Shown: piece after piece, positions 39,477 through 58,227 of the stretch
Numbering within the stretch: position 1 is the stretch's first letter
Layout of the letters: each line of letters starts with the position of its first letter
From: Escherichia phage vB_EcoS_HZ_ZJUN2
DNA length: 64,000 nucleotides
Direction: 5' to 3' (one strand)
Sequence record: PP216084
Position numbers and translations under genes: made by a program
Notes under the pieces: model-generated
Told to the model about the DNA's origin: nothing
Seen by the model: the letters and a program-made list of their open reading frames with translations, nothing else
Databases searched by the model: none

Positions 39477-40348
39477 TGTTCTGCAATCTCCAAAATATCT
39501 TTTGTAAACTTATCTAATACATCTTGACCTACAGCAGCAATAGCATCCACACAGTAGGTAGGTAAATCAACCAGAATTAGGTTTCGATAAAGCAATTCTT
39601 CCGAAGCATTTAAATTCTGTATATATTTCTGTTTTCCAGGCAATGGAAGCTGATCAATAATATCCAGAACGTTACCAAATTCACGAATAATATTATACCC
39701 GCGTTTTGCCCCAATACCTTCAACACCTCGGATATTATCCCCTAAATCACCCATAATTGCTTTCAAAGAGATAAACTGCTCTACATCGTCAACACTATGA
39801 TGCTCATACATATCACGAAGATGATATTCACGGCGTGTTGTGAAAGAGAAGCGAGAAACTTTATCTGTTAATAAAGTATCCCAGTCACCGTCTGTAGAAA
39901 TCAACCAAATGTGGTCATATAGATGCCCGATTAGCTTAACAATATAGGCTGCCATGTCATCTGCCTCTACACCACGAATAGTGAATGTTGGGAATGTAGT
40001 TTCACATAGTTCGAAAGCATCTTTCAAATACTCGAAGAACTGCTCATCTAACGCTTTCTCCTCTTCCGTACGCTGAGAGTATTTCTCATCTCGATTCCCT
40101 TTATACTCGGGGAGATGCTCCAGGCGGAATGCAGACTTCCCTTTATCTCCTAAAACTATTGTAGTTCTAGCAGAATAAGATTTTGCAAGAGACTGAATAG
40201 TGGAAACATAACTTGAGGCAAATGGTTTTTTACTATTGTTATGCTTGAAGCGAAAGCCTAAGTTAGTTCCATCGACAATCATTAGATTACGACGGGAAGC
40301 CATTTCAGCTTCCTCTTCTTCAATAAATTTTCCCCAGGATTTACTCAT
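39473..40348 (-). CDS. D15: Flap endonuclease / 5'-3' exonuclease (D15-like), 291 aa
   Basis: N-terminal MIVDGTNLGFRF PIN-like nuclease motif, helix-hairpin-helix region; length equals recalled T5 D15. Confidence 0.8.
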   Translation of the reverse strand: MSKSWGKFIEEEEAEMASRRNLMIVDGTNLGFRFKHNNSKKPFASSYVSTIQSLAKSYSARTTIVLGDKGKSAFRLEHLPEYKGNRDEKYSQRTEEEKALDEQFFEYLKDAFELCETTFPTFTIRGVEADDMAAYIVKLIGHLYDHIWLISTDGDWDTLLTDKVSRFSFTTRREYHLRDMYEHHSVDDVEQFISLKAIMGDLGDNIRGVEGIGAKRGYNIIREFGNVLDIIDQLPLPGKQKYIQNLNASEELLYRNLILVDLPTYCVDAIAAVGQDVLDKFTKDILEIAEQ

Positions 40349-40830
40349 TATTTAATTAAGTCCTCAACAGATGCATGATGTAGCCACGGCTCAAATAAAC
40401 CAATTACGATTTCCATGTCTTTCTTATTTAACACCATATGGGTACGACTCATTAAGTTGTCAACCATCGGGTCTGAGCTATCCAAAGCTATTAACCACTG
40501 TCCTCTGTCTTTTTTGAATATTAATGCAGGTTTGGAGTTCATCTGCTCACCTTCACGTGAGCACTGCTGCCACCATTTCTCTAGGGTGGATTCGCCAACA
40601 TTAAATAAATTACTTGATATATTATCATCTTTATACCACTTAACTTCGAAGCAGTATTTACTAATGTGTCCGCTTTGTGGTGGAAGGTAGATGTCACCTT
40701 TCAGTCCGTGGCTCTGGCCAAAAGCACCAGAGCCAGGAACACGTTCCCACTCAAGACCTGTACGTTCACGTAAAATATCTCTTACCTGATATTCACCACG
40801 TTTACCCTTCTCTCTACTATCTACAGCCAT
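40348..40830 (-). CDS. D14-like protein, 160 aa, possible resolvase-like nuclease
   Basis: KGKRGEYQVRDILRE...VPGSGAFG resembles Hjc-type resolvase N-terminus; weak. Confidence 0.4.
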   Translation of the reverse strand: MAVDSREKGKRGEYQVRDILRERTGLEWERVPGSGAFGQSHGLKGDIYLPPQSGHISKYCFEVKWYKDDNISSNLFNVGESTLEKWWQQCSREGEQMNSKPALIFKKDRGQWLIALDSSDPMVDNLMSRTHMVLNKKDMEIVIGLFEPWLHHASVEDLIK

Positions 40831-41339
40831 TATTCCTCTGGGAAATTTAATACTGCGAAATCACCGAAGTATTCTTTTGCTTTAATATCATATGCTTTGG
40901 CGGCCTCCTCTAGAGTATTAAAAGATCCTAAGTTCTCTCTAATACCAGTATTAGGGTTCTTAATTCTAGCCCTGGGTTTACCATCTCTACCGTTGGGGAA
41001 ATCTAAACCTTTATACTTAGTAGTCTTAGATCTAGAAGCTCTATTTTGGGCTTGCTGGGACTTAGAAGCATTACGTAAGTTATCTGGAGTATCATTTTGT
41101 CTATTTCTATCTTTATGATCCACTGAGTCTGCCCAGGTACCGTTTGTCATAAAGTAAATTAAATCGTATACTCTATATTCCGTCCCCTTAATACTTGTTC
41201 TATAATATCCATCTTTCGATAGGGATCCAACTCGAGACCCTCTTTTAGCTGATCCTACCGATTTTCTATAGAATAGAGTACCATCCCTAATTTCATACCT
41301 ATCCTGTAGGAACTCTATAGTTATATCTTGCTTTTTCAT
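40830..41339 (-). CDS. HNH homing endonuclease with AP2 DNA-binding domain, 169 aa
   Basis: HNH_3-like DHKDRNRQNDTPDNL and AP2-like YKGLDF...NTLEEAAKAYDIKAKEYFG. Confidence 0.65.
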   Translation of the reverse strand: MKKQDITIEFLQDRYEIRDGTLFYRKSVGSAKRGSRVGSLSKDGYYRTSIKGTEYRVYDLIYFMTNGTWADSVDHKDRNRQNDTPDNLRNASKSQQAQNRASRSKTTKYKGLDFPNGRDGKPRARIKNPNTGIRENLGSFNTLEEAAKAYDIKAKEYFGDFAVLNFPEE

Positions 41340-49937: not shown

Positions 49938-50799
49938 CTAAAATTTCAATACGTTTTGCTAACATATCAATTTCATCTTTGTTTAAATCACCAGGATCTT
50001 TGCCTTCGGGCAGAAGAAAGTTAGCAACTACAGGTGTTAAACGCGTTTTTGTACGAATTAGCTTGGCCAACGCTTGTGCAGCTTTATTACCCGAAGCATC
50101 ATTATCTAGTAAGATAACAACAACTTTTACACCAGCAATAATATAAGGACTGAACTTATCTGCAATGTTATCTGAAGTGAACTGATGTGTACCAAAGCAG
50201 CAAGAAGCATAGTCTATACCGTTATCCTCTAGGTTCAGCATATCAAAGATACCTTCAACTAGAATAAGAACTGGAGTATTATATCGTACAGGGAAAATCG
50301 GTGGTGAAACTTGTTTTGGTTTTACTAAGTATTTAGGAGGGGCAGAACTGTTTATAGAACGACCCAAAAATAGGATATTGCGTCCAACAGCATCTGTGAT
50401 TGGGAATACAATTCTGCCTTCCCAGTCTGCTTGATGTTGGAAAGCAAAATATTTCTTCAAGGTCTTAGAACTTATACCTCGGAAATCACCTTCGAAAAGG
50501 TAAGCAGATTCAGGAATTGCAAGATTCGTTGATCCATTCCTAATCTCTGAAATCTTTTTACGTACCTGTGATAGTCTTGGAGACTGTCGGTACTGAGTCT
50601 CATTAAAATAATGGTAAATGCTCGGTATACCTTTACCGAAGCCACAACTCAAGCAGTGCATAATACCTGTTTCAGGATCAATACGCAAACTTGGGTGTTT
50701 ATCGTCATGATCTGGATTGAGACAACATATAAGAATATCACCACCTGTATCTTTATACTCAATGCCTTTCAGATCAAGTAGTTCTGTTATTCTACTCAT
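49909..50799 (-). CDS. DNA primase, 296 aa (zinc-binding N-terminus plus TOPRIM)
   Basis: CCLNPDHDDKH...HCLSCG zinc motif; TOPRIM EGIFD and LLDNDASG. Confidence 0.75.
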   Translation of the reverse strand: MSRITELLDLKGIEYKDTGGDILICCLNPDHDDKHPSLRIDPETGIMHCLSCGFGKGIPSIYHYFNETQYRQSPRLSQVRKKISEIRNGSTNLAIPESAYLFEGDFRGISSKTLKKYFAFQHQADWEGRIVFPITDAVGRNILFLGRSINSSAPPKYLVKPKQVSPPIFPVRYNTPVLILVEGIFDMLNLEDNGIDYASCCFGTHQFTSDNIADKFSPYIIAGVKVVVILLDNDASGNKAAQALAKLIRTKTRLTPVVANFLLPEGKDPGDLNKDEIDMLAKRIEILVAESLKDLV

Positions 50800-51329
50800 G
50801 AGTTTAGCTCCTCTAGTGCAGGATAATTAGATATATCAAAAATCTCTATAACAGCACGTTCTCCATGTAGATTAGTTCTCAGTATATTTGCTGAGTTTAC
50901 AGCTAATTCTAACTCTTCATACTTAAATCTGCCACCATTTTTAAGGTTGCCATTAGAGTCTCTTACCTGTACCCTCCATTTTTGTTTTTCAATATCCCAA
51001 GCAACTCCTAAGTACCCAGATTTACTACATGCTGTTTTATTTCTACTATTTTCCTGGGCTGTAGCATCTCTTAGATTACACCACCTATTATCAAAGGGTA
51101 TTCTGTTTACATGGTCTACTTTTTCAGGCAGTGTATTCTCCATAAATAGAAAAGCCATACGATGAGCTTTGTAATCCTTTCCATCTATGCCAATAATTAT
51201 ATAGTCATTAGAGTCTTTTCTAGTTACTATACTCCCAGCTTTCTGATTGCCTCTAGATACTTTTCTAGTAAACTCCCCAGTTTCTGGGGAGTAATCAAAT
51301 AACTCTTTTAGCCTTTCCTGTGTTATCAT
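50796..51329 (-). CDS. HNH homing endonuclease with AP2 domain, 177 aa
   Basis: HNH_3-like DHVNRIPFDNRWCNL and AP2-like YLGVAWDIEKQKWRVQV; inserted between helicase and primase. Confidence 0.65.
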   Translation of the reverse strand: MITQERLKELFDYSPETGEFTRKVSRGNQKAGSIVTRKDSNDYIIIGIDGKDYKAHRMAFLFMENTLPEKVDHVNRIPFDNRWCNLRDATAQENSRNKTACSKSGYLGVAWDIEKQKWRVQVRDSNGNLKNGGRFKYEELELAVNSANILRTNLHGERAVIEIFDISNYPALEELNS

Positions 51330-52880: not shown

Positions 52881-53648
52881 TTATTCAGCAGCCGCAGCTT
52901 TTGCATCCAGTTTAGCACGCTTAGCGGCACCATCATAGTCCTTAGCAACCAGACCACGACGAGACAGCATAGATTTAACACCACGCTCAGACTTACCAGT
53001 TTTCTCAGCGATCTCAGCAACAGTCATGTTAACCAGATCCAGACCTTCTAACAGATCTTCACGAGTTTTAGCACTTGAAGTTTCCTGTACCGGCATAGCA
53101 GCGATACGACCTTCACGAAGCAGGCTCAGAGCTTTACCACGGATCTGCTTAATATTGCGACCGAAGTGAGCAGCGATAGCTTCAATAGTAGCACCAGCAA
53201 CAACCTGATTAACAAAATCAGTTTCTTCATCCGGAGTGAAGGAACGAACAGCGGCAGCTTTTTCGGTTGGTTTAACAGAAGCGGTCATTTCCAGACTCAG
53301 GATCTTACCCTGTACCTGTTTAGCACCGAACTGACCACCAGCTACAGCAGCAGCGATTTCAGCATAGGTATACTGACCAGCATGAGCGTTCAGGAAATCA
53401 ACCAGCTCAGCTTCCTGCTCAGGAGTCCACGGGGATTTCTGTACTTCGTTAGCTTTCTGTACTTCAAAACCTTCTTTACGCAGTTTAGAGCCAACAGAGC
53501 GAGCAGTAACATCTTTGCCAGTTTCAGCAGCTAGTTCAGCAGCAATAGCAGCTACTTGTTCTTGAGAGATTACAGCAACACCCAGAGCAGTGGCTTTTGC
53601 TTTCAGAGACTCGGTTACACCTTCTACGTTCCAGTTCAGTTTAGACAT
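52881..53648 (-). CDS. Repeated-motif DNA-binding protein, 255 aa (possible D5-like)
   Basis: Four tandem copies of a ~30 aa unit of form EIAxxxGxxxxxxRxKL; size fits a ~29 kDa dsDNA-binding protein. Confidence 0.45.
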   Translation of the reverse strand: MSKLNWNVEGVTESLKAKATALGVAVISQEQVAAIAAELAAETGKDVTARSVGSKLRKEGFEVQKANEVQKSPWTPEQEAELVDFLNAHAGQYTYAEIAAAVAGGQFGAKQVQGKILSLEMTASVKPTEKAAAVRSFTPDEETDFVNQVVAGATIEAIAAHFGRNIKQIRGKALSLLREGRIAAMPVQETSSAKTREDLLEGLDLVNMTVAEIAEKTGKSERGVKSMLSRRGLVAKDYDGAAKRAKLDAKAAAAE

Positions 53649-54423
53649 TATTATTTTTCTCCAATAGTTCTTTAATCGACAGGATTTCTATCCCATTCGT
53701 TTCGGCTTTCTTATAAGATGAGGAAGAACGTTTTGATTCATCCTCACAGATTAGGTATTTGACGTCTTTGGTAACGGATTTCTTAACCGTATACCCTAGA
53801 CCTTCTAAATAGTTTGTTGCATCCGTTCTATTTGCAAAATCTTGCAAAGATCCGGTAATACATACCGCGATTCCATTTGGCTTGGCAACTAATTCATCCG
53901 TAGTGATAATATTAGCTTTAGTGCCCTTAATACCAGTTGAGAATTTCCACGGTAGTTCGATAACATCCTTGCCTTGTGGGGAATTTAGCCAGGCTTTGTA
54001 ATTTTCTCCAGCCTTGCCGTCAGCCTTCACATCATGGAAGCTAGTGCAATTTTGGGATAATTTCTTTGCTGCAACCTCTCCAATTAGAGGGATTCCTAAA
54101 GAACCGAGAACTGAACCAAAGTCAATGTCTCCGCGAACTTTAGTATTTAATTCGCTAATTAACTTAGCGGCAACCTTGCTACCCACGGCTCTAACCAAAT
54201 CTTCTTCGGTTAGGTAAAATAGTTCTGAAATCTTCGTCAGCTCCAGCTTCTCAATAGTTTTTGGGCCAAAGCCCTTTAACTTCATTTTTGAACAGAAGTT
54301 CTCAATTAACTTGCTTGATTGCGCTGGACAGTTGGACTTATTACGACAGAATAATTGTCCGTTGACAAGATCTAGCTTAGAACCACAAGAGGGACATTGT
54401 GTTGGAATTTCGATTTTCATCAA
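53641..54423 (-). CDS. ligB: NAD-dependent DNA ligase, C-terminal half (Zn finger, HhH, BRCT), 260 aa
   Basis: CPSCGS...CRNKSNC zinc finger, HhH GFGPKTIEKL, BRCT-like CITGSL...YLICED. Confidence 0.75.
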   Translation of the reverse strand: MMKIEIPTQCPSCGSKLDLVNGQLFCRNKSNCPAQSSKLIENFCSKMKLKGFGPKTIEKLELTKISELFYLTEEDLVRAVGSKVAAKLISELNTKVRGDIDFGSVLGSLGIPLIGEVAAKKLSQNCTSFHDVKADGKAGENYKAWLNSPQGKDVIELPWKFSTGIKGTKANIITTDELVAKPNGIAVCITGSLQDFANRTDATNYLEGLGYTVKKSVTKDVKYLICEDESKRSSSSYKKAETNGIEILSIKELLEKNNNV

Positions 54424-54622: not shown

Positions 54623-55597
54623 TTAATCGTATACTCGCTCTACTATGCACGGGATTACACCACCAGCACGAATCACTCGAATCTGGCAACCGATCTCTAG
54701 ATCGAGAGAGTTAATATAATCAACGTTATTAAGAGTTGCTTTAACAATTGTAGCATCATCAATAATTACCGGTTCGAAATAACCAACTGGAGTTACTTTA
54801 CCAGAAGCCCCTACCTGCCATTCAACTTTAGTAAGAGTTGTAATCTCGCCTTCTTCATCCTCTTTAATGGCGAAGGCTCCACGAGGGAATTTATTAGTCC
54901 AGCCTTCACGGAAGAATTTGTTGTTGTCATTAATACGAACAACTTTACCGTCCGTCGGAATCCATTTAAAGAAGGAACGCACATTAACAACTGTTAAGAA
55001 GTTCTCATTCTCTAGCCAAAGCATATCTTTTAAGTATGCTTCTGTAATACCTACAGATTCAGCAGAACATTGGATACCATAAGCAACAAAGATTAAACCG
55101 CCTTCTCCAATGCGTTGTACGAAAGCATCACTATCTTTGAGGTTAATAGCACCAGAGGCAAAGTTACGTTTATTTTCTACTTCTTTTGTAATTAGAACTT
55201 CACCAGTGATTTGAGTAGGTACTTTTTGGGAAATCTTTTTAGGAATATTCAGCAATCTTACGTTGCTTGTGACATCATTCCCCAGAATACCATTACCACG
55301 AGTTAATGCTTGAACAAATTCACCGTTAATATATAATAGAGAAATTGCACAACCATCTAACTTATCAGTTTCTACCTGACCTAAAGGATTAAATGGTGGT
55401 TTATCCCCACGATTATAATAAACTTTCTGTAAAGAATACATACGGTACAGATGTGGAATATCTCCCTTAGGCCCGATCTCTTCTTCTAGTGGGAAGCGTT
55501 TTACCAGGCAATCATACTCCTCATCAGAGATTAAAGACATGCCTTGATAATATGCTTCTTGACAACGCTTAATAAAGCCTCTTACATTATTCATCAT
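54623..55597 (-). CDS. ligA: NAD-dependent DNA ligase, N-terminal adenylation and OB half, 324 aa
   Basis: Adenylation motif KLDG (TDKLDGCAIS), NAD-ligase domain order; separate ORF from the C-terminal half. Confidence 0.8.
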   Translation of the reverse strand: MMNNVRGFIKRCQEAYYQGMSLISDEEYDCLVKRFPLEEEIGPKGDIPHLYRMYSLQKVYYNRGDKPPFNPLGQVETDKLDGCAISLLYINGEFVQALTRGNGILGNDVTSNVRLLNIPKKISQKVPTQITGEVLITKEVENKRNFASGAINLKDSDAFVQRIGEGGLIFVAYGIQCSAESVGITEAYLKDMLWLENENFLTVVNVRSFFKWIPTDGKVVRINDNNKFFREGWTNKFPRGAFAIKEDEEGEITTLTKVEWQVGASGKVTPVGYFEPVIIDDATIVKATLNNVDYINSLDLEIGCQIRVIRAGGVIPCIVERVYD

Positions 55598-55787
55598 CGG
55601 CGATTTCCATCTTGAGTTCTTTATTATATTGTGTAACCATGTCCATCAAATCAGCAGATTCTTTCAGAAACGCATCTTTGTACACCTTTTGATTTACTGT
55701 GCCTATGCTATCTTGATAATTAATACGTGCTGTGGAAAGTAGATTAAGTTTTGCTTGAATCTTGGGAAGTGTTACTGTCATTGCCAT
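55587..55787 (-). CDS. Hypothetical protein, 66 aa
   Basis: ORF in track, start overlapping ligase gene. Confidence 0.4.
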   Translation of the reverse strand: MAMTVTLPKIQAKLNLLSTARINYQDSIGTVNQKVYKDAFLKESADLMDMVTQYNKELKMEIADDE

Positions 55788-56060
55788 TCACCGTACCTCA
55801 TATGCTTTAGGCTGTCTAGTGGATCCGTGCCATGTATAATTTTTGCAAAGATGCAAATATGTAGTTTTTACTAGCCTATCCGATAATGGAGAGTATATTT
55901 CAGCTATTAATACTTCTTTTTCGTAATAAAGTGAAATCAGTTTATACCCAGTTCTAGTTTTAGTATACTTTTCCCCATTAATCTTTTCCTCCCACATGAG
56001 TATGAGAGGCTGTCCGATATATGGAAAAGGTTTAAGTGTACTTATATTTATCTTTTTCAC
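55788..56060 (-). CDS. Hypothetical protein, 90 aa
   Basis: GTG start; downstream of promoter 56091-56119. Confidence 0.45.
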   Translation of the reverse strand: MKKINISTLKPFPYIGQPLILMWEEKINGEKYTKTRTGYKLISLYYEKEVLIAEIYSPLSDRLVKTTYLHLCKNYTWHGSTRQPKAYEVR

Positions 56061-56125: not shown

Positions 56126-56437
56126 TTATTCTTTTTCCGCCAGGCGTTTAGCTTCTTTTTCTACTTCTAATAAAACCTCACTATTAGATAATATTTTAGT
56201 AAATGCCTTAAATAAATGAGATGTTGTTTCTAGAGTGTATGGCATACTGAATCCACTTTTTGTTGGAAACCATTCACCTTCTATATCTTGGAGCCAGTAC
56301 CTAATTCCTAAGTATAGATTCCCCCTAAACTCAGATACAGTTAGCCTAACCTGTTGGCCATCTTCTCTCTCCCAGATAACTATGGACTGATCATCTACAT
56401 GTCCAACATAATCCTGATTTACATTATCTCCTGACAT
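56126..56437 (-). CDS. PC4/Sub1-like ssDNA-binding protein, 103 aa
   Basis: VSEFRGNLYLGIRYW...GEWFPTKSGFSM resembles the PC4 core VxxFRGKxYxDIREYW...PGKKGISL. Confidence 0.55.
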   Translation of the reverse strand: MSGDNVNQDYVGHVDDQSIVIWEREDGQQVRLTVSEFRGNLYLGIRYWLQDIEGEWFPTKSGFSMPYTLETTSHLFKAFTKILSNSEVLLEVEKEAKRLAEKE

Positions 56438-57084
56438 TTTATTGCTCCCTGACTTAGGAGATATTCCTCTGCCTCCTCTGGTTGAATACTGAAAAACTCA
56501 GTAGAACCGTCAAATATTGACTCTGTAAATATCTGCATACTAGAAAAGAATTGATGGGCTTTATTTTCTAGGGTATATGCAGAGCCTTCATAAGAGTATA
56601 CCCCATATATACTCAGATCCACCAAATTAGAATCTTTTTTAATCTCTTGAAGTCTTCTATCTGGGTTTTTAGATGTTCCTATTTTTGTTCCTAGCTGCGG
56701 GCTATAAAATAGATACAAATAGCTTGTAGCCGCACAGATAGGGCAAGATCTTCTAGCATTTTTAATCTTATCCACGCTGCTAACCCATCTATGTCCTTCT
56801 ACACACTCGAACTCTGCTTGACTACGGGAATTAATATAGGGAGATATAAGTTTTATACCCCTACTGGCTAGCTGTTGGTTTATTTGCTCTACAGTAAGCT
56901 TAGCTTTATTACTACAATGTGGGCAACCACTACCCTTTCTTATATTATTTAGGTAAGCTTTCCATTGGTGGCCCTTTAAGCATTTAAACATGGCTGGTGT
57001 TCTTATGTTAACCCATTCACTTACTATACTAAAGCCTCGTGACTCTAATTCTTTATTTATTTGTTTTGCTGTTAACTTTTTCAC
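56419..57084 (-). CDS. Zinc-ribbon repeat protein with C-terminal GIY-YIG-like (T5orf172-type) domain, 221 aa
   Basis: Two repeats of CxxGHxW...CPxC; C-terminal SYLYLFYSPQLGTKIGTSKNPDRRLQE resembles GIY-YIG core. Confidence 0.45.
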   Translation of the reverse strand: MKKLTAKQINKELESRGFSIVSEWVNIRTPAMFKCLKGHQWKAYLNNIRKGSGCPHCSNKAKLTVEQINQQLASRGIKLISPYINSRSQAEFECVEGHRWVSSVDKIKNARRSCPICAATSYLYLFYSPQLGTKIGTSKNPDRRLQEIKKDSNLVDLSIYGVYSYEGSAYTLENKAHQFFSSMQIFTESIFDGSTEFFSIQPEEAEEYLLSQGAIKCQEIM

Positions 57085-57131
57085 TATACTTTATATACAA
57101 CAAAGGAGAGCCGAAGCTCTCCTTTTCTTTA

Positions 57132-57422
57132 CTATTTTTTACCTACTGGCGTAGCTCTATCAAGTTCACTAGACAATGAAGTGATACGTTTTACCTTATT
57201 TACCGGGATGAATCGGAAGCTATCATTAGTACGGCTAAATACTAGAATCTCGTCGTCTTTTGGTTGGCGAATACGCTCCTGGGCGAATCGTTTACTGAGA
57301 TACTTATCAGAAAAGTCCATAGTACCTTGAAGATACGTAGTACCTTTTTGACGTAATTTCTCATAATGAAGGTAGAACTCGTTATGAGCTTCACATGCGG
57401 AGATGATTTCTTGTTTATTCAT
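57132..57422 (-). CDS. Hypothetical protein, 96 aa
   Basis: ORF in track; hairpin 57103-57126 downstream. Confidence 0.45.
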   Translation of the reverse strand: MNKQEIISACEAHNEFYLHYEKLRQKGTTYLQGTMDFSDKYLSKRFAQERIRQPKDDEILVFSRTNDSFRFIPVNKVKRITSLSSELDRATPVGKK

Positions 57423-57951: not shown

Positions 57952-58227
57952 TTACTCCACCAGGCCAACAGCGAGCATATCATCAATGCTGGCAATCTCC
58001 CAATCGTCGGCAATAGCTTCGCATACTGTTAACGTAACAACCTCACTATAGGGATAATTACCAGCTACCCAGGTATGCTGGGTAACTACATCCAAATCAG
58101 TATCCAAAGTTAATAATACTAAACCGTTATTATCGTTATTCCAACTTTTACGATATAAGGTTTTTGTTTCACCATCTTTCAGTAAATCTGTTAGTTTACT
58201 CACGGCGTTTTCCTTTTTCTTTATCAA
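57952..58227 (-). CDS. Hypothetical protein, 91 aa
   Basis: ORF in track; overlaps upstream gene end. Confidence 0.45.
   Translation of the reverse strand: MIKKKENAVSKLTDLLKDGETKTLYRKSWNNDNNGLVLLTLDTDLDVVTQHTWVAGNYPYSEVVTLTVCEAIADDWEIASIDDMLAVGLVE

What the first reader, a model, noticed from the sequence alone, without database searches (positions are those of the whole stretch)
56419..57084. Zinc-ribbon repeat protein with GIY-YIG-like (T5orf172-type) C-terminus
The N-terminus has two tandem copies of a Cys/His zinc ribbon (CLKGHQW...CPHC and CVEGHRW...CPIC) and the C-terminus carries a GIY-YIG-like core. This architecture is poorly characterised and could be a nuclease acting in homing, DNA repair or anti-defence.
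Basis: partly seen in the sequence, partly recalled or inferred. Interest (0 to 1): 0.45.

Follow-up and report, generated by a model that had tools for sequence, protein, structure and literature searches.

The report
Zinc-finger T5orf172 homing endonuclease gene
This is an ordinary selfish "homing endonuclease" gene of a T5-like phage: two zinc-finger DNA-binding modules fused to a GIY-YIG-type nuclease, a class already described in the literature and sitting in a swappable cassette next to a divergent copy of a neighbouring gene.

Summary

The window is a T5-like phage (Tequintavirus). Of 521 phage records carrying this locus, only 13 (8 distinct sources) have the gene. In the others, a conserved "empty" junction lies between the T5.114 and T5.115 homologues. 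The gene is always linked to a divergent allele of the downstream PC4-like gene (about 72% nucleotide identity, 73-77% protein identity). A second T5orf172 gene, 44% identical, occupies the same site in metagenomic phages. All copies are intact, with dN/dS of 0.12-0.25.

This is the pattern expected of a free-standing homing endonuclease gene. The class, with repeated zinc-finger DNA-binding domains and abundance in T5-like phages, was described by Barth et al. 2023. Cleavage activity and the target site are untested. The finding is correct but not novel, so interest is low.

The parts
56419..57084 (-). Free-standing T5orf172-type homing endonuclease gene (221 aa, GTG start, TAA stop)
   Evidence: ORF. 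Pfam and PHROG hits. Orthologues 77-99% identical in nucleotide sequence occur in 8 distinct phages or contigs. All copies are intact, with dN/dS of 0.12-0.25.
56908..57075 (-). Zinc-finger module 1 (aa 4-59; predicted ligands C35, H39, C54, C57). Predicted DNA-binding module.
   Evidence: DUF4379 and CapR Pfam stretches. Ligands are conserved. The model shows a helix followed by a beta-hairpin and a short helix, with pLDDT of about 90. Coordinates.
56728..56898 (-). Zinc-finger module 2 (aa 63-119; predicted ligands C94, H98, C114, C117)
   Evidence: Internal repeat of module 1 (z = 26). C94, C114 and C117 are invariant and H98 is at least 90% conserved in 27 sequences.
56452..56724 (-). T5orf172/MUG113 (GIY-YIG superfamily) nuclease domain, aa 121-211. 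Key residues and their codons: Y124 (56713-56715), K134-I-G (K134 codon 56683-56685), R144 (56653-56655), E173 (56566-56568), E196 (56497-56499).
56419..56485 (-). 3' end of the HEG (last ~21 codons plus the stop). It is nearly invariant (0-2 differences from the window per copy) in all HEG variants, including the 44%-identical second lineage. It carries the ribosome-binding site (GGGAG) and the ATG of the downstream PC4-like gene. HEG and PC4-like gene overlap by 19 nt (56419-56437).
   Evidence: dS = 0 over the tail codons.
56126..56437 (-). PC4-like ssDNA-binding protein gene (T5.115/ORF106 homologue), rare 'X' allele that is always linked to the HEG
   Evidence: Pfam PC4 hit, E = 3.7e-9. 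The 13 HEG+ records are 98-100% identical here; the other 508 records are 60-80% identical. Protein identity to the common allele is 73-77%. The exact protein has a T5orf172 gene immediately upstream in 10 of 10 places read.
57102..57125 (-). Cassette-specific terminator-like hairpin between T5.114 and the HEG. It replaces a different hairpin found in HEG-less phages.
   Evidence: -18.5 kcal/mol, z = -4.0. Empty-site hairpin shown.
57132..57422 (-). T5.114/ORF105 homologue on the upstream flank. It is hyper-divergent at synonymous sites among HEG+ phages and is probably part of the co-converted tract.
   Evidence: dN is about 0 and dS is 0.48-0.94 versus the window. For the same pairs dS is 0.04-0.34 for D3. 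Identity profile.

Best explanation
The ORF is a free-standing homing endonuclease gene (HEG) of the T5orf172 branch of the GIY-YIG nucleases, carried by a T5-like phage.

Proposed mechanism:
- The two N-terminal treble-clef zinc-finger modules read a specific DNA sequence.
- The C-terminal T5orf172 domain cuts DNA nearby. R144 and E173 are the predicted catalytic residues.
- In a mixed infection with a T5-like phage that lacks the gene, the enzyme is inferred to cut the HEG-less locus. The cut would fall at or near the conserved junction between the T5.114 and T5.115 homologues, or inside the common allele of the PC4-like gene.
- Recombinational repair from the HEG+ genome then copies a cassette of about 1 kb: hairpin, HEG and the divergent PC4-like 'X' allele, window about 56126-57134. 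Variable lengths of T5.114 are copied with it.
- The phage's own genome would be immune because the junction is interrupted and the adjacent gene is about 25% diverged.

Shown here:
- The domain architecture.
- Conserved catalytic and zinc-ligand residues.
- A GIY-YIG-like predicted fold.
- Purifying selection on the gene.
- Presence/absence polymorphism at a fixed site with sharp boundaries.
- Absolute linkage to the X allele.
- A second HEG lineage in the same site.

Inferred, not shown:
- That the protein cleaves DNA.
- Where it cuts.
- That it homes.
For: Domains and fold:
- Pfam and PHROG domain hits.
- 27-sequence alignment with invariant Y124, K134, G136, R144, E173 and E196, and conserved zinc ligands.
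- E173 aligns with Odn E180. The E180A mutation abolishes Odn cleavage in vitro and in vivo (PMC8263062, read).
- AlphaFold2 model with mean pLDDT of 88 and a beta-beta-alpha-beta-alpha core.

Distribution:
- The flanks are found in about 440-520 phage records, but the gene is in only 13 records, from 8 distinct sources.
- HEG+ phages belong to both Tequintavirus and Epseptimavirus.
- The empty site is nearly invariant in 9 HEG-less phages.

Cassette structure:
- The cassette is bounded on the left at the PC4 stop codon (conserved promoter region) and on the right at the last codons of T5.114.
- The X allele is linked to a T5orf172 gene in 13 of 13 records and in 10 of 10 places read from other assemblies.
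- A 229-aa T5orf172 HEG of 44% identity sits in the same site with the same 3' tail.
- A natural recombinant (L032) has a swapped zinc-finger half.

Selection and family context:
- dN/dS is 0.12-0.25 in both halves of the protein, and every copy is intact.
- Family members lie at other loci in T5-like genomes: 597 places in 405 records, up to 5 per genome.
- The window's ligA is closest to a HEG-less phage (oldekolle, dS 0.044) rather than to HEG+ SP01 (dS 0.285), which shows mosaic inheritance.
- The literature describes exactly this class in T5-like phages (PMC10448857).
Against: - No biochemical or genetic test exists for this orthologue group.
- The second GIY-YIG tyrosine is replaced by Lys (KIG), and the His/Tyr of helix 1 is absent. 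Both are also true of active Odn.
- Sequence-only links to canonical GIY-YIG enzymes failed: hhalign against I-TevI gave 1.3% probability, a PDB sequence search found nothing, and Foldseek gave no significant hit.
- The target site is only inferred.
- The X allele and the HEG 3' tail are almost invariant while the HEG body has dS of 0.5-1.3. A simple single-origin homing history does not explain this.
- No decayed copies were seen, although the classic HEG life cycle predicts them.
Confidence: 0.75

Rival explanations
1. The protein is a repurposed ('domesticated' or weaponised) site-specific nuclease. Like ICP1 Odn, it would be kept because it cuts a competitor such as a co-infecting phage, a satellite or a plasmid. 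Alternatively it causes marker exclusion of a rival PC4-like allele, rather than merely spreading itself.
For: - Odn shows that a T5orf172 nuclease can be an anti-parasite weapon (PMC8263062).
- The gene is under purifying selection and intact in every copy seen, with no decaying copies.
- It is strictly linked to a distinct allele of an early ssDNA-binding protein gene.
- There is a weak hit to a candidate defence model, PADLOC PDC-S57, at E = 1.3e-4.
Against: - Only 8 of several hundred T5-like phages carry it.
- Its DNA-binding modules are the generic HEG zinc fingers, not a domain borrowed from a target element as in Odn.
- No satellite or target element is known for T5-like phages.
- Marker exclusion is mechanistically the same as homing.
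Confidence: 0.12
2. The protein is mainly a sequence-specific DNA-binding regulator. It would resemble CapR, or I-TevI acting as an autorepressor, controlling the early operon or the downstream PC4-like gene, with the nuclease domain inactive or secondary.
For: - CapR-type zinc-finger domains bind promoter DNA (PMC8096241).
- T5orf172 was originally regarded as a DNA-binding domain (same paper).
- The gene sits inside an early operon and overlaps the translation start of the next gene.
- It lacks the helix-1 His/Tyr and the second Tyr of canonical GIY-YIG enzymes.
Against: - The catalytic Arg and Glu are invariant across 27 diverse family members, and the nuclease half is as constrained as the zinc-finger half.
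- CapR itself has lost the nuclease domain, whereas this protein keeps it.
- Most T5-like phages run the same operon without this gene.
Confidence: 0.07
3. The protein is a DNA-repair or anti-defence nuclease serving the phage's own replication, as in the reader's other suggestions.
For: - It lies in the replication/recombination module (ligase, PC4-like protein, D2/D3, helicase).
Against: - Its sporadic distribution is incompatible with a core repair role.
- Sequence-specific zinc-finger arrays are typical of HEGs, not of structure-specific repair nucleases.
- It has no NCBIfam match and no known anti-defence domain.
Confidence: 0.04
4. The gene is a dead relic, a decaying HEG with no activity.
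For: - It has a GTG start with no clear Shine-Dalgarno sequence and a terminator-like hairpin directly upstream.
- Gene callers often choose internal ATG starts instead.
Against: - All 15 or more copies examined keep the full 221-codon frame.
- dN/dS is 0.12-0.25 despite dS up to 1.3.
- Catalytic and zinc-ligand residues are invariant.
Confidence: 0.02

Closest known systems
T5orf172 homing endonucleases of ICP1 and T5-like phages (Barth, Dunham and Seed 2023, PMC10448857), e.g. ICP1 gp165/gp174; database orthologue Salmonella phage SP01 gp056 'endonuclease' (YP_009792514)
   Same: - Same architecture: one or more CapR/DUF723/DUF4379 zinc-finger DNA-binding modules at the N-terminus and a T5orf172 nuclease domain at the C-terminus.
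- Both are free-standing genes near replication genes and lie at boundaries of recombination blocks.
- The paper explicitly notes enrichment in T5-like phages.
- SP01 gp056 is 98% identical to this protein.
   Different: - No member from a T5-like phage has been assayed.
- This orthologue group has exactly two zinc-finger modules.
- It is tied to a specific divergent allele of the PC4-like gene, a detail I did not find in the sections of that paper that I read.
Odn (ICP1 gp88), origin-directed nuclease (PMC8263062)
   Same: - It has a T5orf172 domain.
- BLASTP aligns the nuclease domains at 24% identity, with Odn E180 matching E173 here.
- It likewise lacks the helix-1 His/Tyr.
- Site-specific DNA cleavage has been demonstrated for it.
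   Different: Odn's DNA-binding domain is a RepA_N domain taken from the PLE satellite, and it acts as an anti-satellite weapon. The protein here uses zinc-finger modules and shows the population pattern of a HEG.
CapR of PLE satellites (PMC8096241)
   Same: It shares a homologous zinc-finger DNA-binding module (Pfam CapR homology domain, 2 stretches).
   Different: CapR has no nuclease domain and works as a transcriptional repressor. The protein here keeps an intact nuclease domain.
I-TevI and the T4 Seg proteins (canonical GIY-YIG homing endonucleases). From my own knowledge, SegG next to T4 gene 32 is a marker-exclusion example.
   Same: - Both are free-standing genes beside a conserved gene whose allele is co-converted.
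- Like segG, this gene lies next to an ssDNA-binding protein gene.
   Different: - The domain order is reversed: the nuclease is N-terminal in I-TevI and C-terminal here.
- The motif is KIG instead of YIG.
- There is no detectable sequence similarity (hhalign probability 1.3%).
- The DNA-binding modules are treble-clef zinc fingers rather than NUMOD/HTH domains.

Membership tests
GIY-YIG nuclease superfamily, T5orf172/MUG113 branch | Match to the family HMMs above the curated threshold | tested here: met
   MUG113 scores 44.1 bits (cut-off 22.3) and T5orf172 scores 29.8 bits (cut-off 20).
GIY-YIG nuclease superfamily, T5orf172/MUG113 branch | Beta-beta-alpha-beta-alpha core fold resembling solved GIY-YIG domains | tested here: met
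   [not shown]
GIY-YIG nuclease superfamily, T5orf172/MUG113 branch | Tyr of the first motif ('GIY') on strand 1 | tested here: met
   Y124 (motif LYL) is invariant in 27 sequences.
GIY-YIG nuclease superfamily, T5orf172/MUG113 branch | Tyr of the second motif ('YIG') on strand 2 | tested here: not met
   The motif is K134-I-G, with Lys invariant in place of Tyr. Every family member aligned here carries this substitution, and active Odn has the same motif (KVG). It therefore does not argue against the T5orf172 branch.
GIY-YIG nuclease superfamily, T5orf172/MUG113 branch | Catalytic Arg in helix 1 and catalytic/metal-binding Glu in helix 2 | tested here: met
   R144 and E173 are invariant. E173 aligns with Odn E180, whose E180A mutant is inactive (PMC8263062).
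GIY-YIG nuclease superfamily, T5orf172/MUG113 branch | His/Tyr in helix 1 (canonical enzymes) | tested here: not met
   Helix 1 reads PDRRLQEIKKD and contains no His or Tyr. The Odn paper reports the same absence in the active enzyme.
GIY-YIG nuclease superfamily, T5orf172/MUG113 branch | Metal-dependent DNA cleavage | not testable with these tools
   This needs purified protein and E173A/R144A controls.
Free-standing homing endonuclease gene | Presence/absence polymorphism at one fixed site among close relatives, with a conserved empty site | tested here: met
   The gene is in 13 of 521 records.
Free-standing homing endonuclease gene | Distribution incongruent with the backbone (horizontal spread or mosaicism) | tested here: met
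   HEG+ phages occur in two genera. The window's ligA is nearest to HEG-less oldekolle. A second HEG lineage and a recombinant allele occupy the same site. No formal phylogenetic test was run.
Free-standing homing endonuclease gene | The enzyme cleaves the HEG-less allele, and its own genome is resistant | not testable with these tools
   The evidence is only circumstantial. The junction is interrupted, and the adjacent PC4-like gene is about 25% diverged in HEG+ genomes.
Free-standing homing endonuclease gene | Super-Mendelian inheritance in mixed infection | not testable with these tools
   This needs phage crosses.
DUF4379/CapR treble-clef zinc-finger DNA-binding module | HMM match and four conserved metal ligands per module | tested here: met
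   [not shown]
DUF4379/CapR treble-clef zinc-finger DNA-binding module | Zinc binding and sequence-specific DNA binding | not testable with these tools
   DNA binding that depends on the Cys residues has been shown for CapR only (PMC8096241).
CapR-like domesticated repressor | Loss of the nuclease domain | tested here: not met
   A full T5orf172 domain with its catalytic residues is retained.

The most novel reading that the evidence does not exclude
The HEG and the divergent PC4-like ssDNA-binding protein allele may form an obligate two-gene mobile cassette. In that reading, the nuclease targets the common PC4-like allele or its junction and drives its wholesale replacement, a form of marker exclusion of an early replication/recombination protein. 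HEG bodies would be swapped in and out next to a constant 'X allele plus leader' unit. This could explain why the X allele and the last 66 nt of the HEG are nearly invariant while the HEG body and T5.114 are about 10-fold more diverged.
Probability: 0.3. Interest if true: 0.4.

Novelty: already known. Interest (0 to 1): 0.2.

Why it matters
The practical value lies in annotation and phage engineering.
- The gene should be labelled a T5orf172-type (GIY-YIG superfamily) homing endonuclease, not 'hypothetical protein'.
- It marks a recombination boundary in the replication module of T5-like phages.

If its target were mapped, it would have two uses.
- It would be the first characterised T5orf172 HEG from the phage group the domain is named after.
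- It would be a tractable case for how tandem zinc-finger modules set HEG specificity. A natural recombinant allele with a swapped zinc-finger half already exists.

The strict linkage to a divergent PC4-like allele is a small new population-genetic observation. It does not change the general picture.

Tried and rejected
- **PDB sequence-profile search:** nothing relevant.
- **hhalign of the family alignment against the I-TevI catalytic domain:** the I-TevI sequence was first verified as 100% identical to the T4 td-intron ORF. The comparison gave 1.3% probability and is uninformative. A canonical GIY-YIG profile was not built.
- **Truncated gene calls as decaying HEGs:** gene calls of 190 aa and 118 aa in metagenomic contigs looked like decayed copies. 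This was rejected, because the full 221-codon frame from the GTG start is intact in all of them.
- **Cassette identity with SP01 as evidence of recent transfer:** the cassette is nearly identical between the window and SP01. This was rejected as evidence, because the two phages are 94-100% identical over most of 50-63 kb.
- **More X-allele loci:** IMG/VR returned only the same isolates, and JGI metagenomes returned nothing. The exact-protein look-up did add independent contigs.
- **Paralogue inside the window:** none found by tblastn.
- **NCBIfam and PADLOC:** NCBIfam had no match. PADLOC gave only a weak hit to PDC-S57.
- **Rfam over 54.0-59.5 kb:** nothing credible.
- **Promoter scan:** the number of hits did not exceed shuffles, so no promoter is claimed.

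Full report
**Observation**

The window carries an open reading frame at 56419..57084 on the minus strand, 221 codons long, with a GTG start and a TAA stop. Paralogues from other phages start with Met at the same alignment column, which supports this start.

The N-terminal 120 residues are two tandem copies of a module of about 57 residues (aa 4-59 and 63-119).
- Their local alignment scores 135, against 21.6 +/- 4.3 for 2000 shuffles (z = 26).
- Nucleotide identity between the repeats is only 51%, so the duplication is old.
- Each copy has a C-x3-H...C-x2-C ligand set: C35/H39/C54/C57 and C94/H98/C114/C117.

Pfam hits are all above their gathering scores:
- DUF4379 'probable treble-clef zinc finger': E = 4e-10, two stretches.
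- CapR homology domain: E = 1.5e-7, two stretches.
- MUG113: E = 3e-11, aa 134-208.
- T5orf172: E = 8.7e-7, aa 122-208.

PHROG 681 'endonuclease' matches at E = 2e-50.

**Is the C-terminus a GIY-YIG-type nuclease domain?**

In an alignment of 27 family members with 28-98% identity, the invariant residues of the C-terminal domain are Y124, K134, G136, R144, E173, G193 and E196. H177 is conserved in at least 90%.

BLASTP against Odn (ICP1 gp88, taken from NC_015157) aligns the two T5orf172 domains and places Odn E180 on E173.
- Odn is a T5orf172 protein that cleaves DNA in vitro and in vivo.
- Its E180A mutant is inactive.
- The authors equate E180 with the catalytic Glu of I-TevI (PMC8263062).

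An AlphaFold2 model built on the 27-sequence alignment has mean pLDDT of 88.3. It shows two helix-plus-beta-hairpin modules followed by a beta-beta-alpha-beta-alpha core.

Departures from the canonical motif:
- The second motif is KIG rather than YIG.
- There is no His/Tyr in helix 1. Active Odn also lacks this residue.

- Foldseek gave no significant hit.
- A PDB sequence search found nothing.
- hhalign against a single I-TevI sequence gave no signal.

The residues are there.

**Genomic setting**

The window is a T5-like phage (Demerecviridae, Tequintavirus). Its nearest database relatives are Salmonella phage SP01 and Escherichia phage SelmaRatti.

The gene lies in the early replication module. 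The order, all on the minus strand, is:
- D1-type helicase/origin-binding protein
- D2
- T5.112
- D3
- T5.114
- this gene
- a PC4-like ssDNA-binding protein gene (T5.115/ORF106 homologue; Pfam PC4, E = 3.7e-9)
- small ORFs
- the split NAD-dependent ligase

The HEG stop overlaps the PC4-like start by 19 nt. The ribosome-binding site of the PC4-like gene (GGGAG) lies inside the last HEG codons. Directly upstream of the HEG is a stable terminator-like hairpin at 57102-57125. No clear Shine-Dalgarno sequence precedes the GTG start. Weak expression signals of this kind are common for such genes (my own knowledge).

**Distribution**

The flanking sequence is found in about 440-520 phage records. The gene itself is found in only 13 records, which come from 8 distinct sources:
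- SP01
- SelmaRatti
- fp01
- ESCO30
- smaug
- NR01
- two wastewater contigs

smaug is an Epseptimavirus and the others are Tequintavirus.

In HEG-less phages (T5, DT57C, oldekolle, bux and five others), T5.114 and T5.115 are separated by about 50 nt containing a different hairpin. This junction is almost invariant.

What differs in HEG+ phages is not a simple insertion. It is a cassette that runs from the stop codon of the PC4-like gene (about 56126) to the last codons of T5.114 (about 57134). To the left of the stop codon, the sequence is shared with more than 150 phages and overlaps an annotated T5 early promoter.

The PC4-like gene inside the cassette is a distinct 'X' allele.
- The 13 HEG+ records are 98-100% identical to the window in this gene.
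- The other 508 records are 60-80% identical, mostly about 72%.
- Protein identity to the common allele is 73-77%.
- An exact-sequence look-up of the X protein in other public assemblies found it in 125 blocks of the collection.
- In all 10 places read, a T5orf172 gene lies immediately upstream with the same 19-nt overlap.

In two of those contigs (L004, L030) the upstream gene is a different T5orf172 HEG.
- It is 229 aa long and 44% identical to this protein.
- It shares only the last ~66 nt with this gene.
- On L004 it sits next to a T5-type T5.114 allele.

Contig L032 carries a recombinant allele. Its zinc-finger half is of the fp01/ESCO30 type and its nuclease half is of the window type.

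Relatives of the protein at 25-44% identity occur at other positions in T5-like genomes: 597 places in 405 records, up to five per genome.

The zinc-finger module alone is very widespread. 13,959 cluster representatives match at E <= 1e-3, in arrays of up to about 11 modules. It is also found fused to other nuclease domains, namely Vsr/DUF559-type, MTES-type and HNH.

**Selection and divergence**

All orthologues keep the full frame. Shorter gene calls in metagenome contigs are start-codon choices by the gene caller, not truncations.

| Segment | dN/dS or dS between lineage groups |
|---|---|
| HEG, zinc-finger half and nuclease half | pairwise dN/dS 0.12-0.25 |
| HEG body | dS 0.47-1.3 |
| T5.114 | dS 0.48-0.94, dN about 0 |
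| D3 (background, same phage pairs) | dS 0.04-0.34 |
| PC4-X allele | dS <= 0.08 |
| Last 20 HEG codons | dS 0 |

The switch from the invariant stretch to the divergent one is sharp, at about 56485-56490.

The HEG therefore sits exactly at a boundary between a nearly invariant block and a hyper-divergent block. This is the pattern that gave Barth et al. 2023 their title. I cannot fully explain why the X allele and leader are so uniform. Recombinational exchange of HEG bodies, using the X allele and T5.114/D3 as homology arms, is the best guess.

The window's ligA is closest to HEG-less oldekolle (dS 0.044), not to HEG+ SP01 (dS 0.285). This shows mosaic inheritance around the cassette.

**Mechanism**

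The best-supported reading is a free-standing homing endonuclease gene.
- The zinc-finger modules give sequence recognition. This is inferred from CapR, whose homologous domain binds DNA in a Cys-dependent way (PMC8096241).
- The T5orf172 domain cuts DNA, inferred from Odn.
- In mixed infection the HEG-less junction or the common PC4-like allele would be cut.
- Repair from the HEG+ genome would then copy the cassette.
- On the left, the 25% divergence of the PC4-like alleles leaves no homology until the promoter beyond the stop codon. This would explain why the whole X allele always travels with the HEG.
- On the right, homology in T5.114/D3 would allow variable end points, as observed.

These steps are inference. 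No cleavage or cross data exist.

The rival explanations are less likely:
- a weaponised nuclease like Odn;
- a CapR-like or I-TevI-like regulator;
- a repair or anti-defence enzyme;
- a dead relic.

The evidence against them is the sporadic distribution, the retained and constrained catalytic residues, and the generic HEG-type DNA-binding modules.

**Comparison with what is known**

The class is already described.
- Netter et al. 2021 (PMC8096241) linked CapR-type zinc-finger domains to T5orf172 HEGs.
- Barth et al. 2021 (PMC8263062) demonstrated nuclease activity for a T5orf172 domain.
- Barth, Dunham and Seed 2023 (PMC10448857) surveyed 468 T5orf172 HEGs. They reported that 87% carry CapR/DUF723/DUF4379-type zinc-finger domains, often repeated. 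They noted that the genes are abundant in T5-like phages, cluster near essential genes and mark recombination boundaries.

RefSeq already calls the 98%-identical SP01 protein 'endonuclease'.

Relative to canonical GIY-YIG HEGs such as I-TevI and the Seg proteins:
- the domain order is reversed;
- the YIG tyrosine is replaced by Lys;
- the DNA-binding region is built from zinc fingers.

The fold and the lifestyle are the same.

**Verdict**

It overstates how uncharacterised the architecture is.

The finding is an ordinary member of a known class. The only modestly new points are:
- the strict linkage to a divergent PC4-like allele;
- the co-occupation of one site by two HEG lineages;
- the sharp divergence boundary inside the gene's 3' end.

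Interest is 0.2.

Noticed in passing
window 57952..58227 (-): This 91-aa ORF (T5.112 position) has a weak, sub-threshold Pfam match to the Tad2-like (Thoeris anti-defence 2-like) domain: E = 9.6e-4, 20.1 bits against a cut-off of 25. The region has two allele classes among T5-like phages. The window is only 61-72% identical to SP01 here but 79-97% identical to fp01 and DT57C.
   Followed up: no
window 50796..51329 (-) and 40830..41339 (-): Two further HEG-like genes with HNH_3 domains (E = 6e-8 and 3e-7) lie in the replication module. A PDDEXK_15 phage endonuclease gene is at 40348..40830. The window therefore holds at least three homing-endonuclease-like genes from two families.
   Followed up: partly
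window 53641..54423 and 54623..55597 (-); locus L032:4115-4756: The NAD-dependent DNA ligase is split into two genes with a gap of about 200 nt. In a metagenomic T5-like contig, a canonical GIY-YIG gene (213 aa, PF01541, E = 1.7e-5) sits exactly in that gap. A Klebsiella T5-like phage has a T5orf172-family hit next to its ligase (H59). This suggests the ligase split is a HEG insertion site that is now empty in this window.
   Followed up: partly
locus L013:1983-2507 (Klebsiella phage Roth39): An HNH_3 plus AP2 homing-endonuclease-like gene lies directly downstream of this phage's PC4-like gene. The PC4-like gene therefore attracts HEGs of different families on both sides.
   Followed up: partly
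locus L032:1854-2519: A natural recombinant allele of the HEG. Its zinc-finger half resembles the fp01/ESCO30-type alleles, and its nuclease half is identical to the window type. This is an example of module exchange within the gene.
   Followed up: partly
window 55587..56060 (-): Two small ORFs (66 aa and 90 aa) between the PC4-like gene and ligA vary in presence/absence among otherwise collinear T5-like phages. Neither has a Pfam match.
   Followed up: no
window 56126..56485: The PC4-X allele and the last ~66 nt of the HEG are almost invariant (dS <= 0.08), while the adjacent HEG body and T5.114 have dS of 0.5-1.3 in the same phage pairs. The cause is not resolved.
   Followed up: partly
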